Shown piece by piece: positions 1 to 62,591 of a stretch of DNA of 64,000 nucleotides. The notes beneath the pieces were generated by a model. The model worked only from the letters and a program-made list of their open reading frames with translations, did not search any database and was not told the DNA's origin. A program made the translations under genes and the position numbers. The number at the start of each line of letters is the position of its first letter. The stretch's first letter is position 1. This stretch comes from Bacteroidota bacterium. Its GTDB lineage: Bacteria; Bacteroidota; Ignavibacteria; UBA10030; BY39. Where the stretch lies: assembly GCA_030682385.1 (NCBI GenBank), contig JAUXOG010000067.1:8790-72789 (forward strand), in the 5' to 3' direction.

Positions 1-398
1 TGATTTAAGCTCCGTGAATAATGAATCCACCTACTCCCGAATGCTTTCGGTACTTCCGCTTGCACTTCGTTTCAGCGGACAAGTCGGCGGACAGGTATCG
101 AATAGTGAATAACGAATGCCGAAAAAAATTTGAAAACCGTGGCGGGATGCCCACACTTGTCCAGAGGTCCGGAGAGATTCCTTCGGAAGATGCTGCGAAC
201 TCAAGAATTGAGAAAAAGTTTGAATGAGGGGAGAAGAGTCGCCGCCCTGGAGATTATAGATTTTGATATATGCACTGTTTACCAATTAATGAAACTCCTT
301 TATGTTATTAGAAAGTTTGTTATCTATTGGTGCCAACTGCCGTAATCCACTGCCGGAAGTATAACATTTTTCGCGTATAAAGTCAAGCCTGCCTGCGC

Positions 399-46512: not shown

Positions 46513-47802
46513 ATGAACACATCAAAGTCAGATACACTATTCGAAAAAGCAAAACAATTAATCCCCGGCGGTGTGAACTCGCCCGTGCGGGCTTTCAAAT
46601 CTGTAGGCACAAATCCTCTATTCATACAAAAAGCAAAGGGTTCCAAACTATGGGATGCCGATGGAAACGAATTCATCGATTACGTTGGCTCGTGGGGACC
46701 GATGCTGCTTGGGCATTCACATCCAAAAATAATTGAAGCAATTAAGAAAACTGCTGAAAACGGAACAAGCTTCGGCGCCCCAACCGAGCTTGAAGTGATG
46801 ATCGCTGAATTGATTACGAAGATAATGCCTTCAATCGAAATGGTTCGAATGGTAAACTCAGGCACAGAAGCAACAATGAGCGCAATCAGGCTTGCACGCG
46901 CATACACGGGTAAAGATAAGATGATCAAATTTGAAGGATGCTACCACGGACACGGCGATTCGTTTCTAATAAAAGCCGGTTCGGGGGCTATGACTTTCGG
47001 AGTCCCTGACAGTCCCGGTATTCCGAAAGGCATTGCCGATTATACTTTGACTGCGCGCTTCAATGATATCGCTTCGGTTGAGGAATTGATTTCGAAAAAC
47101 AAATCAGAGATTGCCGCGTTAATCGTTGAGCCCGTTGTCGGAAACATGGGATGCATTCCGCCGCGAGAAAATTTTCTGAAACAACTGCGGCAGTTATGCA
47201 CACGGGAAAATATAGTTCTGATTTTCGATGAAGTGATGACCGGGTTTCGCATTTCTCTCGGCGGTGCTCAGGAACTTTACAAAATTAAACCAGACATTAC
47301 CACACTTGGCAAAATTATCGGCGGAGGTTTGCCTGTTGGCGCTTACGGCGGCAAAAAAGAAATAATGCAATTGGTTTCACCAAGCGGACCTATGTATCAA
47401 GCCGGAACGCTATCGGGCAATCCGTTAGCTATGGCGGCGGGGTTTGAAATGCTTTCGATTATTTCACAAGATAAATCTGTTTATAAAATTCTTGAGGAAC
47501 GGTCCGCACAATTAGAAAATGGGATGCGGGAGACTCTGCAAAAATTTAGTTTGAATTACAGGATAAACAGAGTCGGTTCTATGTTCACTTTGTTTTTCAC
47601 TGATAAAGAAGTCTTTGATTATGATAGTGCCAAAACATCGGATACTAAAAAGTTCGCTTTATATTTTAATGAGATGTTGATGCAGGGAATATATTTAGCT
47701 CCGTCGCAGTTTGAAGCTGCATTTGTTTCGGCGGCACATTCTACGGAAGATATTGAAAAGACAAATCGAGCGTTTGCTGAAGCGATTAAAAATATAACGT
47801 AG
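46513..47802 (+). CDS. hemL: Glutamate-1-semialdehyde 2,1-aminomutase
   Basis: Class-III aminotransferase with a PLP-lysine region ([17 protein letters not shown]). 429 aa. Confidence 0.9.
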
Positions 47803-48182
47803 AGACGTTCCATGGAACGTCTCCTGTCTTACGCACTGGGACACCCAAAACCAAGAATTGGAGTTTTATAAGATTAATAATTAACATACCGCTCCTACGG
47901 AGCGGGTAATATATTCTTTGATACATAGCTACAGACATACGAGTCCTACGGACTCGATAAATGGTAGTTATGAAACGACTCCAAAGGAGTCGAATGTCTG
48001 TAGTATTTGAAATATAAAATAATACCGACCCCAGCGGGGTCGAATGTTTGTATGTATTTTCCGTCTTACGCATTGGGACACCCGTATCCAAAAGTAAAAT
48101 GCGGTTTTTGGTAATATTTCTAAAGATTTTTCGTTTTTGTTAAAATTGTGCGGAAGTCAGGAGACGTTCCATGGAACGTCTC
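47802..48182. repeat. Copy 1 of a ~340-bp multi-hairpin intergenic element, bounded by two identical 22-bp palindromes (GAGACGTTCCATGGAACGTCTC)
   Basis: The core 47824-48160 is highly similar to 62190-62540. It contains four CGAnTCC-N3-GGAnTCG-type hairpins (ccgctcctacggagcgg, cgagtcctacggactcg, cgactccaaaggagtcg, cgaccccagcggggtcg). It also has two internal direct copies of CGTCTTACGCAYTGGGACACCC. Confidence 0.8.
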
Positions 48183-48258
48183 TACTGCATTTTTTTCCAA
48201 CACAAAAGCCATCCCGAAAATCGAGATGGCTTTTGTATTTAAATAAAATTTAAACTTA

Positions 48259-49734
48259 CTAATTTCCGACACTGCCATAAAGGAATGCAGTAGCATTTCC
48301 ATTCGAACCGCTTACAGAAATTTTTACCACAACCGGCATAATCTGTGGTGTTCCGGCTGGCGTGGCATCGACCACAGTAAGTGTGAAATCAGTTCTTCCA
48401 GGACCGCGGAAGAGATAATCGTTTAATGGTTCATCGGGTAAGCCGCCAACTTTTGCAGCCCAGTTAGTACCTTCAGGTGGCGAGAATTCGATGGTTGATG
48501 AGATTTGGGTTCCCGGTGCAAGTGGATTTCCGTGTTGGTCGGATATATTTACGCTAAACGTTTGCGACCCACCGCGCGGAACGTTGATTGTATAGGACGG
48601 ACTTACGCTAATGCCTGGAACTCCGGAGAATAGTATTATAACGCTATCTTTAACAATAACGCCATTTTGTCCGATAGTTTGAGCATAAATCCATGCATAG
48701 CCTGGTCCAAATCCGGGGACAGCGTAATTTGGTAATGGATTGCCGCTATAAAGAGTTGCTGTTGTTTGTCCTTTTATATCGGTATAGCGCGCAGCAGTTA
48801 CGATACCACCTGTTGTATTAAAATAAACCGCCGTCCCTTGATGAACAGGATTGCTATATTTATCTCCAACCTGTACAAGGATTTCGTTCGTCCTTCCAAT
48901 CCAATTGTATGCGGCAAAGTTAGATTGTTTAGGACCGATTGAAAAATAATTCTGGTCGGGTAAACCGGCATTTACGACGACACGAGTTGGTGTTGAACGA
49001 ACCCAAACTCCATCACTCTCTCTTCTCAACGAAGCGACTATCTGAAGGACACCTGAAATCGTTCCGCTGTTCACAGTCGTTGCGACCCGCCCCGCTGAAT
49101 TTGTTAACGACCACGAAGGTGAAACATAGGCGCCTCCTGCAACCGGAGGTCCTGCAATAGAAAAGGTTACAGTATCACGCTGCGAAATACTGATTGGAAA
49201 TCCAAGTGAATCTCTAACTTCATATAGTATTATAGCAGTTTCGTTACCCCCAACTCCATAAACTTTTATATCAATTGTTTGTGGACCCATGAAGGCAATT
49301 GTTTGAGGCATACCTGAGCCGGGCGGAATTCCACCACCACCCCCAATTGTTGTTGTTGTATCGAGTGTGATTGTAATCGGAGGAATCGGATATTTCGATC
49401 CAACTTCTACTTCAAATGTGAAGGGGGATTCTTCTTTGTATCCTTCTTTTTTTATATTCATTGTTACATTTAACTGAACCGCAGGCTCAAGTGTAAATTG
49501 AAAGTAATAATTCCCATCTTGATCTGTTGAGTCGATCATCGGAGTCAAACCGCTTGCAGTTAAATTTACTTGTACATCCTTAACCGGTAATATCATATTT
49601 TGCTTTTGCTCTACGACTTTACCGGATATTATCACAAGTGTTTCCTCTTCTACCGGGGCTACCTTGTCCGTACAGCTATAGAGTGTGAATAGAAACAGAG
49701 CCGCAAGCAGACACATCAATATTTTTATTTTCAT
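48259..49734 (-). CDS. Lipoprotein with carboxypeptidase-regulatory-like and Ig-like beta domains, last gene of the pilus cluster
   Basis: Lipobox LFTLYSCTD. ISGKVVEQ beta-sandwich N-domain. Gly/Thr-rich Ig-like repeats. Confidence 0.45.
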   Translation of the reverse strand: MKIKILMCLLAALFLFTLYSCTDKVAPVEEETLVIISGKVVEQKQNMILPVKDVQVNLTASGLTPMIDSTDQDGNYYFQFTLEPAVQLNVTMNIKKEGYKEESPFTFEVEVGSKYPIPPITITLDTTTTIGGGGGIPPGSGMPQTIAFMGPQTIDIKVYGVGGNETAIILYEVRDSLGFPISISQRDTVTFSIAGPPVAGGAYVSPSWSLTNSAGRVATTVNSGTISGVLQIVASLRRESDGVWVRSTPTRVVVNAGLPDQNYFSIGPKQSNFAAYNWIGRTNEILVQVGDKYSNPVHQGTAVYFNTTGGIVTAARYTDIKGQTTATLYSGNPLPNYAVPGFGPGYAWIYAQTIGQNGVIVKDSVIILFSGVPGISVSPSYTINVPRGGSQTFSVNISDQHGNPLAPGTQISSTIEFSPPEGTNWAAKVGGLPDEPLNDYLFRGPGRTDFTLTVVDATPAGTPQIMPVVVKISVSGSNGNATAFLYGSVGN

Positions 49735-61945: not shown

Positions 61946-62126
61946 CCGGATAAAAATGTTAGAAATGGGATAAAACAAAGGATATAAGGATATACTTCAG
62001 CCAACTTATTAAAGGGGTAGGTAATAATTACCGAAATGGGTTGCATTTGTTACAAAGTCGGTAAAAATGCCTGAATATCGCTCTCCACTTCCTGTTTTTT
62101 CACTTTGTAATTCTTTATATCCTTCG

Positions 62127-62591
62127 CTCTGCTGGTTGCTGAGCTGTTAAACTGAGCTTGTCGAAGTTTTATCGAAGCTGGTTGCTCCCGTCTTACACAT
62201 AGGGCACCCAAAACCAAGAATTGGAGTTTTATAAGATTAAAAATTAACATTAGTTACAGACATACGAGTCGCCTTTGGCGACCTACGGACTCGATAAATG
62301 GTAGTTATGAAACGACTCCAAAGGAGTCGAATGTCTGTAGTACTTGAAATATAAAATAATACCGACCCCAGCGGCCTGCCCGCCGTCCCTCTTTTCGGGA
62401 CTTTGGTAGGCGGGGGGGCGAATGTTTGTATGTATTTTCCGTCTTACGCACTGGAACACCCGTATCCAAAAATAAAATGCGGTTTTTTGTAATATTTCTA
62501 AAGAATTTTCGTTTTTGTTAAAATTGTGCGGAAATCAGGTCTTTATTCTTATCTCTGCTGGTTGCTGAGCTGTAAACTGAGCTTGTCGAAG
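62127..62591. repeat. Copy 2 of the ~340-bp multi-hairpin element, bounded by 39-40-bp direct repeats (CTCTGCTGGTTGCTGAGCTGT(T)AAACTGAGCTTGTCGAAG)
   Basis: The core 62190-62540 aligns to 47824-48160 with two module swaps. One hairpin module is replaced by attagtta. The cgaccccagcggggtcg hairpin is expanded to a GC-rich hairpin containing GCCTGCCCGCC...GGTAGGCGGGGGGG. Confidence 0.8.

What the first reader, a model, noticed from the sequence alone, without database searches (positions are those of the whole stretch)
47900..48060. Inside the element: a tandem array of short hairpins of one design (CGAnTCC-loop3-GGAnTCG) with module swapping between copies
Four hairpins share the same 7-bp stem and 3-nt loop architecture with compensatory changes that keep pairing: ccgCtcc/ggaGcgg, cgaGtcc/ggaCtcg, cgaCtcc/ggaGtcg, cgaCCcc/ggGGtcg. 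Most are followed by AATGTYTG. Between the two copies, whole hairpin modules are deleted or replaced rather than point-mutated. Compensatory stem changes are the classic signature of selection on RNA or DNA structure, not on coding. An outer stem CAGACAT...ATGTCTG encloses two of the hairpins, giving a larger multi-stem fold.
Basis: seen in the sequence. Interest (0 to 1): 0.7.

Follow-up and report, generated by a model that had tools for sequence, protein, structure and literature searches.

The report
Hairpin modules inside an IS1634-derived MITE
The four look-alike hairpins are real, but they are the repeated palindromic filling of a small non-autonomous transposon (a MITE derived from an IS1634-family insertion sequence) that jumped into the hemL terminator, so this is a fairly ordinary mobile-DNA feature and there is no evidence for a new structured RNA.

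Summary
Four perfect hairpins (7-bp stem, 3-nt loop) lie at 47889-48042, against 0.04 expected by chance. A 10-bp outer stem encloses two of them. Stem differences are always two-sided.

The array is the passenger segment of a 339-bp MITE (47823-48161). A second copy lies at 62188-62539. Its terminal inverted repeats and about 100 bp of one end match an IS1634-family insertion sequence found intact in metagenomes. A relative with 92% identical hemL has the empty site, with one copy of the 20-bp target that is duplicated here.

Only four copies of the hairpin-bearing MITE were found. A covariance model of the 41-nt module finds nothing else in 332 kb. Rfam gives no hit.

The modules sit in both orientations. 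The three-hairpin block is inverted between two lineages. Copy 2 carries a 38-nt deletion and two nested hairpin insertions.

There are only 3-4 compensatory events and no G-U intermediate inside a hairpin stem. This fits DNA-level palindrome dynamics such as template switching as well as it fits selection on an RNA fold. Any function, such as a terminator or insulator, is inferred and untested.

Verdict: a new member of a known kind, of low to moderate interest.

The parts
47823..48161 (+). MITE copy 1 (339 bp), a non-autonomous derivative of an IS1634-family IS. Its layout is left TIR plus IS-end fragment, then the hairpin array, then a complete 101-bp mini-MITE unit.
   Evidence: The ends CCTGTCTTACGCAC and GTGCGGAAGTCAGG match the ends of intact IS copies. 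A relative has the empty site. The window holds no transposase.
47803..47822 (.). Left copy of the 20-bp target-site duplication AGACGTTCCATGGAACGTCT, which is part of the palindromic hemL terminator stem.
   Evidence: The single copy in L063 is followed by CTGCATTATTTTTTTT.
48162..48181 (.). Right copy of the 20-bp target-site duplication.
47823..47885 (+). Left TIR (47823-47836) plus a degenerate fragment of the IS-end 'R' unit, including TGGGACACCC.
   Evidence: It is identical over 29-31 nt to the IS end that overlaps the transposase stop codon.
47886..48060 (.). Hairpin array, the passenger segment. It holds four modules of about 50 nt, the first two reversed and the last two forward.
47889..47905 (.). 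Hairpin H0, CCGCTCC-tac-GGAGCGG, in a reverse-orientation module. It is deleted in copy 2.
47940..47956 (.). Hairpin H1, CGAGTCC-tac-GGACTCG, in a reverse-orientation module.
47976..47992 (.). Hairpin H2, CGACTCC-aaa-GGAGTCG, in a forward module.
48026..48042 (.). Hairpin H3, CGACCCC-agc-GGGGTCG, in a forward module. Its orthologue in L001 is CGACTCC-agc-GGAGTCG.
47929..47938 (.). 5' arm of the outer stem, CTACAGACAT. It is the flank of the reversed module H1.
47994..48003 (.). 3' arm of the outer stem, ATGTCTGTAG. It is the flank of the forward module H2.
48061..48161 (+). Complete 'R' unit, a 101-bp mini-MITE with its own TIRs. It is homologous to the transposase-upstream end of the IS at 75-79% over about 90 nt.
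   Evidence: Solo R units occur in L045 and L039.
62188..62539 (+). MITE copy 2 (352 bp). It lacks H0, has a 12-nt insertion in H1 (62271-62282) and a 41-nt GC-rich hairpin insertion in H3 (hairpin region 62363-62420). H2 is intact at 62313-62329.
62118..62166 (.). Left copy of an imperfect direct repeat of about 50 nt that flanks copy 2. About 22 extra nt lie between it and the element.
   Evidence: (families D4 and D9).
62544..62591 (.). Right copy of the direct repeat that flanks copy 2.

Best explanation
The hairpin array is the internal passenger segment of a miniature inverted-repeat transposable element (MITE) that is mobilised in trans by an IS1634-family DDE transposase.

Shown:
- The element is 339-352 bp and non-coding.
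- It carries the terminal inverted repeats and subterminal sequences of that IS.
- It sits at unrelated loci, flanked by the long, variable target duplications typical of IS1634 (20, about 50 and 84 bp).
- Copy 1 was inserted into the palindromic terminator of hemL, and a close relative has the empty site.
- The array is built from a module of about 50 nt: a 7-bp GC-rich perfect palindrome with a 3-4-nt loop, then (A/T)ATGTYTGTAG, then an A/T-rich spacer ending in AATAATAC. Modules occur in both orientations, and the outer stem is simply the flanks of two oppositely oriented modules.
- The array evolves by DNA-level rearrangement: module deletion, nested hairpin insertions, and inversion of the whole three-hairpin block between lineages.

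Inferred:
- The strictly two-sided stem changes, and the lack of G-U states within the stems, come mainly from palindrome-specific mutation, meaning template switching or intra-strand correction between arms, together with duplication of modules. Selection on an RNA fold is the less likely cause.
- If the array does anything for the host or the element, the most likely role is as short GC-rich stem-loops with A/T-rich flanks that act in either direction as weak terminators or 3'-end protecting structures. That would insulate neighbouring genes when the element lands in intergenic terminators.
- The array may have started as a target-derived segment trapped between two mini-MITE units.
For: Anatomy and chance.

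Element ends match IS ends:
- The same 29-31-nt terminus occurs in 30+ metagenome and MAG loci.
- 24 loci carry a transposase homologue next to it.
- The intact 512-aa transposase in L048 scores 2.7e-107 (359.8 bits, cut-off 100) against NF033559, the IS1634 family model.
- The other IS end, CCGGACTTCCGCAC / GCTGAAGTCAGG, matches the MITE right end.

Mobility:
- Four copies lie in different contexts.
- The empty site in L063 has one copy of the palindrome.
- The duplications are 20 bp (copy 1) and 84 bp (L001).
- IS1634 and IS1549 are documented to make direct repeats of 8-514 bp (PMC2266710).

The element is non-coding. Its indels of 38, 12 and 41 nt break every reading frame, and the longest spurious ORF has no homologue.

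The module family is confined to this MITE. The covariance model R1 finds only the 14 modules in 332 kb, and the regex and hairpin scan gives the same result.

Pairing statistics: 98.7% of cells paired, 4 of 7 pairs with two-sided change and 0 with one-sided change.

Inversion: the L001 array aligns to the reverse complement of H1-H3 with score 101-106, against 36 for the forward orientation and a maximum of 25 in shuffles. The flanking R units are collinear.

Both strands fold equally well, with z = -5.4 and -6.4.

The terminator scan flags hairpins of the array and of the duplicated target: 6 sites against 0.7 expected.

Template switching is known to create and repair perfect stems and to invert the spacers of inverted repeats (PMC8794818; PMC8604942 abstract).
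Against: Stems are more conserved than spacers between the diverged copies W1 and L001. About 3 substitutions fall in 42 stem nt, while the spacers carry many substitutions and indels. This is also what selection on structure would give.

One orthologous pair shows a clean compensatory change, and the design is kept across copies that are about 75-80% identical.

The two imperfect pairs seen are both G-U on the same (minus) strand of the element. One is in the L005 outer stem and the other is the terminal pair of L001 M3. That would fit an RNA read from that strand, but n = 2.

No direct evidence for termination or any other activity exists. The U-tracts are poor for most hairpins.

The origin of the array is unknown. 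It has no similarity to the IS interior or to other host DNA in the data.

The 41-nt and 12-nt insertions are not reverse-complement copies of nearby sequence, so simple template switching does not explain them.
Confidence: 0.75

Rival explanations
1. The array, or the whole element, encodes a structured non-coding RNA such as an sRNA or a cis-regulatory or processing signal. Its multi-stem fold would be under purifying selection, and the compensatory changes would record that selection.
For: The fold is very stable (z = -6.9). Stem changes are two-sided with none one-sided. One orthologous compensatory change is seen. The hairpin design and outer stem are conserved in L001 at about 75% identity. 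Both imperfect pairs are G-U on the same strand.
Against: Rfam gives no hit at gathering threshold, and only noise at E up to 10. Both strands fold equally well. There is no wobble pair in 77 stem cells. The block works 'equally' in either orientation, since it is inverted between lineages. A whole module can be deleted and 12-41-nt insertions are tolerated. No convincing promoter is found. Only 4 copies exist, all inside a transposon.
Confidence: 0.1
2. Each hairpin module is an independent REP/REPIN-like micro-element, mobilised for example by a RAYT or IS200-type Y1 transposase, that has repeatedly inserted into the MITE.
For: The modules occur in both orientations, like REP pairs in BIMEs. 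Copy 2 shows further small GC-rich hairpins inserted exactly inside existing hairpins. Other GC-rich palindromic repeats are seen next to ends of related elements (L026, L028 and L005).
Against: The module is never found outside the four MITE copies, either in the 64-kb window or in 332 kb of window plus loci. The inserted 12-nt and 41-nt sequences have no other copy. Module order and spacers are collinear between copies once the inversion is allowed for, so the modules were inherited as a block and not inserted one by one.
Confidence: 0.07
3. The hairpins are cis-acting sites needed for transposition, for example binding sites for the transposase or a host factor.
For: They are conserved in all four copies of this MITE lineage.
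Against: The autonomous IS copies and the 101-105-bp mini-MITEs have the same ends but no such hairpins (the BLAST of the array hits only L005 and L001). Number and orientation vary: there are 4, 3 and 3 modules, and the block is inverted.
Confidence: 0.04
4. The hairpins are a chance clustering of palindromes, or a coding or CRISPR-like feature.
For: None beyond superficial repetitiveness.
Against: Shuffles give 0.04 hairpins against 4 observed. The indels break all reading frames and the ORF has no homologue. The region is not a CRISPR-type array of identical repeats alternating with unique spacers, and TRF finds no tandem array.
Confidence: 0.01

Closest known systems
MITEs derived from insertion sequences, here from an IS1634-family IS (IS1634 / IS1549 type)
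   Same: The element is short and non-coding. It has the TIRs and subterminal sequence of an autonomous IS, multiple copies, target-site duplications and a documented empty site. The long, variable direct repeats (20-84 bp) match the peculiarity reported for IS1634 and IS1549 (PMC2266710).
   Different: This lineage carries about 175 nt of palindromic modules that are absent from the parent IS and from the minimal 101-105-bp MITE. It is a composite: a truncated R unit, a passenger and a complete R unit. In one text search pairing 'IS1634' with 'miniature inverted-repeat', none of the listed titles or abstract openings described such an element; the papers themselves were not opened.
BOX elements of Streptococcus pneumoniae (boxA-boxB(n)-boxC), and modular bacterial MITEs in general such as Correia, RUP and ERIC (from my own knowledge, not tested here)
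   Same: They are modular repeats in which the number of internal hairpin-forming modules varies between copies. They are predicted to form stable stem-loops when transcribed, and they are intergenic.
   Different: There is no sequence relationship. This element has a clear parent IS, TIRs and long TSDs, and its modules occur in both orientations.
REP / BIME / REPIN elements (from my own knowledge)
   Same: They are short GC-rich palindromes, often in alternating orientation, located downstream of genes. They can act as mRNA 3'-end stabilisers or weak terminators.
   Different: REPs are dispersed in hundreds of extragenic copies and are tied to a RAYT gene. These modules are found only inside one MITE lineage.
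Template-switch (quasipalindrome) mutation of inverted repeats
   Same: It explains perfect stems, simultaneous two-sided changes and inversion of sequence between inverted repeats without selection (PMC8794818; PMC8604942 abstract).
   Different: It is a mutational process and not an element family. The 12-nt and 41-nt insertions in copy 2 are not obvious reverse-complement copies of neighbouring sequence.

Membership tests
MITE (non-autonomous IS derivative) | Short (under about 500 bp) with no transposase or conserved ORF | tested here: met
   The copies are 339 and 352 bp. The indels break all frames, the 101-aa spurious ORF has no homologue, and tblastn with the transposase finds nothing in the window.
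MITE (non-autonomous IS derivative) | Terminal inverted repeats identical or near-identical to those of an autonomous IS | tested here: met
   The left end CCTGTCTTACGCACTGGGACACCC is identical over 29-31 nt to the IS end in L003, L004, L020, L040 and others. The right ~90 nt is 75-79% identical to the other IS end in L004, L048 and L055.
MITE (non-autonomous IS derivative) | Flanking target-site duplication and an empty site in a relative | tested here: met
   A 20-bp duplication flanks copy 1. L063 has a single copy and no element. An 84-bp duplication flanks the L001 copy. The flanks of copy 2 are an imperfect repeat of about 50 nt with extra sequence.
MITE (non-autonomous IS derivative) | Multiple copies at unrelated loci | tested here: met
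   There are two copies in the window and two in MAG G03 (L001, L005), all in different contexts. A short-read assembly of the same organism breaks inside copy 2.
IS1634 family (parent element) | DDE transposase matching the IS1634 family model | tested here: met
   The L048 transposase (512 aa) scores 359.8 bits against NF033559 (cut-off 100). The L004 fragment gives 7.8e-21. The transposase is not in the window itself.
IS1634 family (parent element) | Long direct repeats of variable length at insertion sites (reported for IS1634 and IS1549) | tested here: met
   The repeats are 20, about 50 and 84 bp for the MITE. Repeats of about 85 bp flank a solo end in L010. The literature reports 8-514 bp (PMC2266710).
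Known structured RNA family (Rfam) | Match to a covariance model at its gathering score | tested here: not met
   There are 0 hits in the window at gathering threshold. Below threshold only noise is seen, with the best hit over the array being MicF at 23.7 bits against a gathering score of 79.
Structured RNA under selection (generic) | Statistically supported covariation among many independent orthologues, with wobble intermediates and a strand bias | tested here: inconclusive
   Four of 7 pairs change on both sides and 0/500 shuffles reach the observed covariation score. However, the rows are paralogous or near-identical modules from 4 copies. Only one compensatory event is orthologous. There is no G-U in the stems, and both strands fold equally well.
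REP / REPIN | Many dispersed extragenic copies independent of other elements | tested here: not met
   The module occurs only inside the MITE copies, both in the window and across the 332 kb (window plus loci) searched.
REP / REPIN | Associated RAYT (Y1 transposase) gene in the genome | not tested
   Only 64 kb of the genome is available and no search for a Y1 transposase was run.
Intrinsic terminator | GC-rich stem-loop followed directly by a U-tract, with termination shown experimentally | tested here: inconclusive
   The consensus scan flags H3 on both strands and H0 on the minus strand. The other hairpin-strand combinations have poor T-tracts. Activity cannot be tested here.
CRISPR array | Identical direct repeats alternating with unique spacers of similar length | tested here: not met
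   The hairpins differ in sequence and orientation. The spacers are themselves repeated module flanks, and TRF finds nothing.

The most novel reading that the evidence does not exclude
The array is a functional cargo and not junk. On this reading it is a cluster of host terminator-like hairpins captured as a long target duplication between two mini-MITE units, and now spread by the MITE as a portable, orientation-independent terminator or insulator, or RNA-stabilising, cassette. The block bounded by inverted module flanks might even flip within populations, which would make it an inverton-like switch. The stems would then be kept by selection.
Probability: 0.12. Interest if true: 0.5.

Novelty: new member of a known kind. 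Interest (0 to 1): 0.27.

Why it matters
It explains an eye-catching 'covarying hairpin array' as transposon anatomy, which prevents it being annotated as a new ncRNA.

It documents a MITE lineage of the IS1634 family in Ignavibacteria-like bacteria, with an empty-site proof and long target duplications of 20-84 bp. This is useful material for the unsolved question of how IS1634-type elements make such long duplications.

It is also a compact natural example of perfect, apparently compensatory stems arising and rearranging in DNA palindromes through inversion, nested hairpin insertion and symmetric changes. That is a caution for covariation-based RNA discovery.

If the array turned out to be a mobile terminator or insulator cassette, the finding would be modestly more interesting.

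Tried and rejected
1. Rfam at gathering threshold over the whole window and at E up to 10 over 47700-48300 gave no meaningful family.

2. I tried to harvest more copies through spurious ORFs. The search for homologous proteins with the 101-aa ORF across the array gave no hits.

3. An exact look-up of hemL failed when given with its stop codon. The protein was later found as P0001.

4. A viral-contig scan with a module pattern gave one hit, a chance match in GC-rich coding DNA.

5. The metagenome scan with the 18-mer from the element end gave 56 loci. About a third are chance hits in unrelated GC-rich DNA, most of the rest are full, decayed or solo ends of the parent IS, and none is a new hairpin-bearing copy.

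6. I looked for the 12-nt and 41-nt insertions of copy 2 elsewhere. No other copy exists, only 10-13-nt chance matches.

7. I first read the G-type and C-type stems as having 'swapped' between W1 and L001 through compensatory flips. I rejected this because the whole block is inverted, which explains the pattern without substitutions.

8. I considered that the module flank AATGTTTGTA derives from the transposase start codon region (ATGTTTGTACGG in L048). I rejected this as too short, in the wrong orientation and without extended similarity (BLAST).

9. I considered IS200/IS605-PATE, IS110 bridge-RNA, retroelement (SINE-like) and CRISPR-like readings early on. I dropped them once the DDE IS1634 parent and its TIRs were found.

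10. Extending the source genome through Logan contigs gave only short contigs, which break at the repeat.

Full report
OBSERVATION

There are four perfect hairpins, each with a 7-bp stem and a 3-nt loop:
- H0, 47889-47905: CCGCTCC-tac-GGAGCGG
- H1, 47940-47956: CGAGTCC-tac-GGACTCG
- H2, 47976-47992: CGACTCC-aaa-GGAGTCG
- H3, 48026-48042: CGACCCC-agc-GGGGTCG

A 10-bp outer stem, CTACAGACAT (47929-38) / ATGTCTGTAG (47994-48003), encloses H1 and H2.

This is far beyond chance. The degenerate motif occurs 4 times against 0.19 expected. The 175-nt array holds 4 perfect hairpins with stems of at least 7 bp, against a mean of 0.04 in 2000 shuffles. Seven of the nine GC-rich perfect 7-bp hairpins in the 64-kb window belong to the two element copies or their duplicated targets. 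The array folds with z = -6.9. The whole element folds with z = -5.4 on the plus strand and -6.4 on the minus strand, so there is no strand preference.

WHAT THE SURROUNDING ELEMENT IS

The array lies in a repeat present twice in the window, at 47823-48161 and 62188-62539. Its ends are imperfect inverted repeats: CCTGTCTTACGCAC on the left and GTGCGGAAGTCAGG on the right.

Scanning public genomes and metagenomes with the left-end sequence showed that CC(T/C)G(A/T)CTTACGCAYTGGGACACCCAAA is the terminus of a widespread insertion sequence.
- 24 of the fetched loci carry a transposase homologue next to it.
- The intact 512-aa protein of L048 matches NCBIfam NF033559, 'IS1634 family transposase', at 359.8 bits against a cut-off of 100. 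The decayed copy in L004 gives 7.8e-21.
- The other IS end (CCGGACTTCCGCAC in L004...AAAATGTGCTGAAGTCAGG in L048) corresponds to the right ~100 nt of the window element at 75-79% identity over about 90 nt.
- The window has no transposase.

The IS carries TTGGGACACCC in direct orientation at both ends. At one end this 11-mer encodes the last residues and lies just before the stop codon of the transposase. Solo 'R units' of 101-105 bp (L045, L039) look like deletions between these two repeats.

The window element is a composite. It consists of the left TIR plus a degenerate R fragment (47823-47885), the hairpin array (47886-48060), and a complete R unit with its own TIRs (48061-48161).

PROOF OF MOBILITY

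Copy 1 lies between hemL (46513-47802, +) and a convergent gene (48259-49734, -). It is flanked by two copies of AGACGTTCCATGGAACGTCT (47803-22 and 48162-81).

A Logan contig from a relative with 92% identical hemL (L063) has only 100 bp between the same two genes. That interval holds a single palindrome, TAGAGACGTTTCATGAAACGTCTCTA, followed by CTGCATTATTTTTTTT. This is the empty site. The element therefore inserted into the hemL terminator stem with a 20-bp target duplication.

The copy in MAG G03 (L001) is flanked by an 84-bp duplication with 2 mismatches. Copy 2 in the window is flanked by an imperfect repeat of about 50 nt, with about 22 extra nt at the left junction.

Long direct repeats of variable length (8-514 bp) are the documented oddity of IS1634 and IS1549 (PMC2266710).

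A short-read assembly of the same organism breaks 47 nt inside copy 2 (L069 ends at window 62234), as expected for a multicopy repeat.

ANATOMY OF THE ARRAY

When every hairpin is aligned with its flanks, one module emerges (alignment A2)...AATAATAC - CGAsTCC - NNN(N) - GGAsTCG - (A/T)ATGTYTGTAG...

In copy 1, H0 and H1 are reversed and H2 and H3 are forward. The outer stem, and a further outer helix predicted by RNAfold, are therefore just the flanks of oppositely oriented modules.

A covariance model of the 41-nt module (R1) finds only the 12 training modules and the two disrupted modules of copy 2 (E = 1e-5 and 6.5e-5) in 332 kb of window plus loci. Regex and hairpin scans agree.

Only four copies of the hairpin-bearing MITE were found:
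- W1 (window copy 1)
- W2 (window copy 2)
- L005, which is 95% identical to W1 and truncated on the right
- L001, which is about 75-83% identical

The parent IS and the mini-MITEs lack the array.

HOW THE ARRAY VARIES

W2 differs from W1 in three main ways:
- a 38-nt deletion removes H0;
- a 12-nt insertion in H1 creates a competing hairpin, GTCGCC-ttt-GGCGAC;
- a 41-nt GC-rich hairpin is inserted in the 3' arm of H3, with one substitution.

The 93 nt between H1 and H3 are 99% identical. Neither inserted sequence has another copy in the data.

Between W1 and L001 the R units are collinear. The hairpin block, however, aligns only as a reverse complement, with score 101-106 against 36 forward and a maximum of 25 in shuffles. 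The H1-H3 block, bounded by the inverted module flanks at 47921-38 and 48043-57, has therefore been inverted in one lineage.

After allowing for this inversion, the orthologous stems compare as follows:
- H2 is identical.
- H1 is identical except for a broken terminal pair.
- H3 differs by one clean compensatory change (C-G versus T-A) with the same loop.

COVARIATION

Counted on the module alignment, 98.7% of stem cells are paired. Four of 7 pairs show changes on both sides and none shows a change on one side only. No shuffle reaches the observed covariation score, and slid controls collapse.

The rows are paralogues and near-identical orthologues from four copies. The changes reduce to about 3-4 events:
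- the G-type versus C-type stem at pair 4;
- the CC-type stem at pair 5;
- the H0 type, which may be a symmetric one-base deletion in each arm.

There is not a single G-U pair in the stems. The only two imperfect pairs are the outer stem in L005 and the terminal pair of L001 M3. Both would be G-U on the element's minus strand, but n = 2.

Perfect DNA palindromes with simultaneous two-sided changes, plus inversions of the sequence between inverted repeats, are what replication template switching produces without selection (PMC8794818; PMC8604942 abstract). The host hemL terminator palindrome also differs symmetrically between the window (TTCCATGGAA) and L063 (TTTCATGAAA). Here selection for a terminator stem is plausible, so the two causes cannot be separated by pattern alone.

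MECHANISM, AND WHAT IS INFERRED

The following points are shown:
- This is a MITE of an IS1634-family element.
- The array is its passenger.
- The array evolves by DNA rearrangements.

The following points are inferred:
(i) Stem perfection is maintained mainly by palindrome-specific mutation and module duplication.
(ii) If the array has a function, it most likely provides short GC-rich stem-loops with A/T-rich flanks that terminate or protect transcripts in either direction. The terminator scan flags H3 on both strands and H0 on the minus strand, with 6 sites in 800 nt against 0.7 expected, including the duplicated host palindrome. This would make insertions into intergenic terminators tolerable. 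W1 and L001 both sit between convergent genes.
(iii) The R-passenger-R layout suggests that the array began as target-derived DNA trapped between two mini-MITE units. Related loci show solo ends embedded in long duplications (L010, L009) and hairpin repeats next to element ends (L026, L028, L039).

None of (i) to (iii) is tested.

RIVALS

- A selected structured RNA remains possible at about 0.1. It is disfavoured by the absence of an Rfam hit, the strand symmetry, the tolerance of inversion, deletion and 12-41-nt insertions, and the confinement of the array to a transposon.
- Independent REP-like micro-elements are disfavoured because the module never occurs outside the MITE and the block is inherited collinearly.
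- A cis requirement for transposition is disfavoured because the parent IS and the mini-MITEs lack the array.
- Coding, CRISPR-like and chance explanations are rejected.

COMPARISON WITH KNOWN SYSTEMS, AND VERDICT

The element passes every MITE criterion tested: size and lack of coding, TIRs shared with an autonomous IS, TSD plus empty site, and multiple copies. Its parent passes the IS1634 family model and shows the family's long variable duplications.

The array resembles the variable internal modules of pneumococcal BOX elements, and also REP/BIME pairs, in what it looks like. That comparison rests on my own knowledge. It fails the REP criterion of dispersed independent copies.

This is a new member of a known kind. 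It has some instructive details: a long TSD in a terminator, an inverted hairpin block, and nested hairpin insertions. It is also a cautionary example for covariation-based RNA discovery. Interest is low to moderate.

Noticed in passing
window 47800-47825 and 48160-48185; L063 3793-3818: The hemL terminator palindrome, which is the insertion target, differs between the window (GTTCCATGGAAC) and the relative L063 (GTTTCATGAAAC) by a symmetric double change that keeps the stem perfect. Both TSD copies in the window carry the same version.
   Followed up: partly
window 47921-48057 versus L001 6295-6450: The three-hairpin block is in opposite orientation in two MITE lineages while the flanking R units are collinear. 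The inversion lies between inverted module flanks. Whether it flips within populations is unknown.
   Followed up: partly
L048 108-1759; L045 about 518-620; L039 860-958: The parent IS has TTGGGACACCC in direct orientation at both ends. At one end it encodes the transposase C-terminus ...FGCPNA just before the stop codon. Mini-MITEs of 101-105 bp look like deletions between these two 11-mers.
   Followed up: partly
L010 about 1-250 (minus strand); L009 4240-5100 and L061: Footprint-like structures are present. In L010 a 26-nt solo IS end lies between two direct repeats of about 85 bp. In L009/L061 there are tandem 332-bp units, each containing a solo end. These suggest long target duplications that persist after loss of the element.
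   Followed up: no
L039 1004-1304: A tandem array of 5.2 copies of a 58-nt unit (93% matches), each unit with two hairpins, lies about 45 nt from a solo R unit. Its relation to the element is unknown.
   Followed up: no
L026 and L028 (next to the solo end); L005 3810-3880: A GC-rich palindromic repeat (CCCCTCTTGAGAGGGGGTAGGGGGTGTGTC and relatives) has 2 copies in L026 and 1 in L028 beside a solo IS end. A similar element truncates the L005 MITE copy. It probably belongs to a separate small repeat family of these genomes.
   Followed up: no
window 62363-62420 and 62271-62282: The two insertions in copy 2 are themselves hairpins. They landed exactly inside existing hairpins and have no other copy in the data. 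Their origin is unexplained.
   Followed up: partly
window 62234 (L069 end): A Logan short-read contig of the same organism (100% identical over 3785 nt) ends 47 nt inside MITE copy 2, consistent with an assembly break at a multicopy repeat.
   Followed up: yes
window 48203-48240: A strong bidirectional intrinsic-terminator-like hairpin (AAAAGCCATCCCGAAAATCGAGATGGCTTTT) lies between the element and the convergent gene. It is conserved in L063 and L067.
   Followed up: no
L067 3790-4256: In another relative with 91% identical hemL, the hemL-downstream spacer lacks the palindrome and holds a 64-aa ORF on the minus strand instead. The intergenic region is therefore variable among relatives.
   Followed up: no
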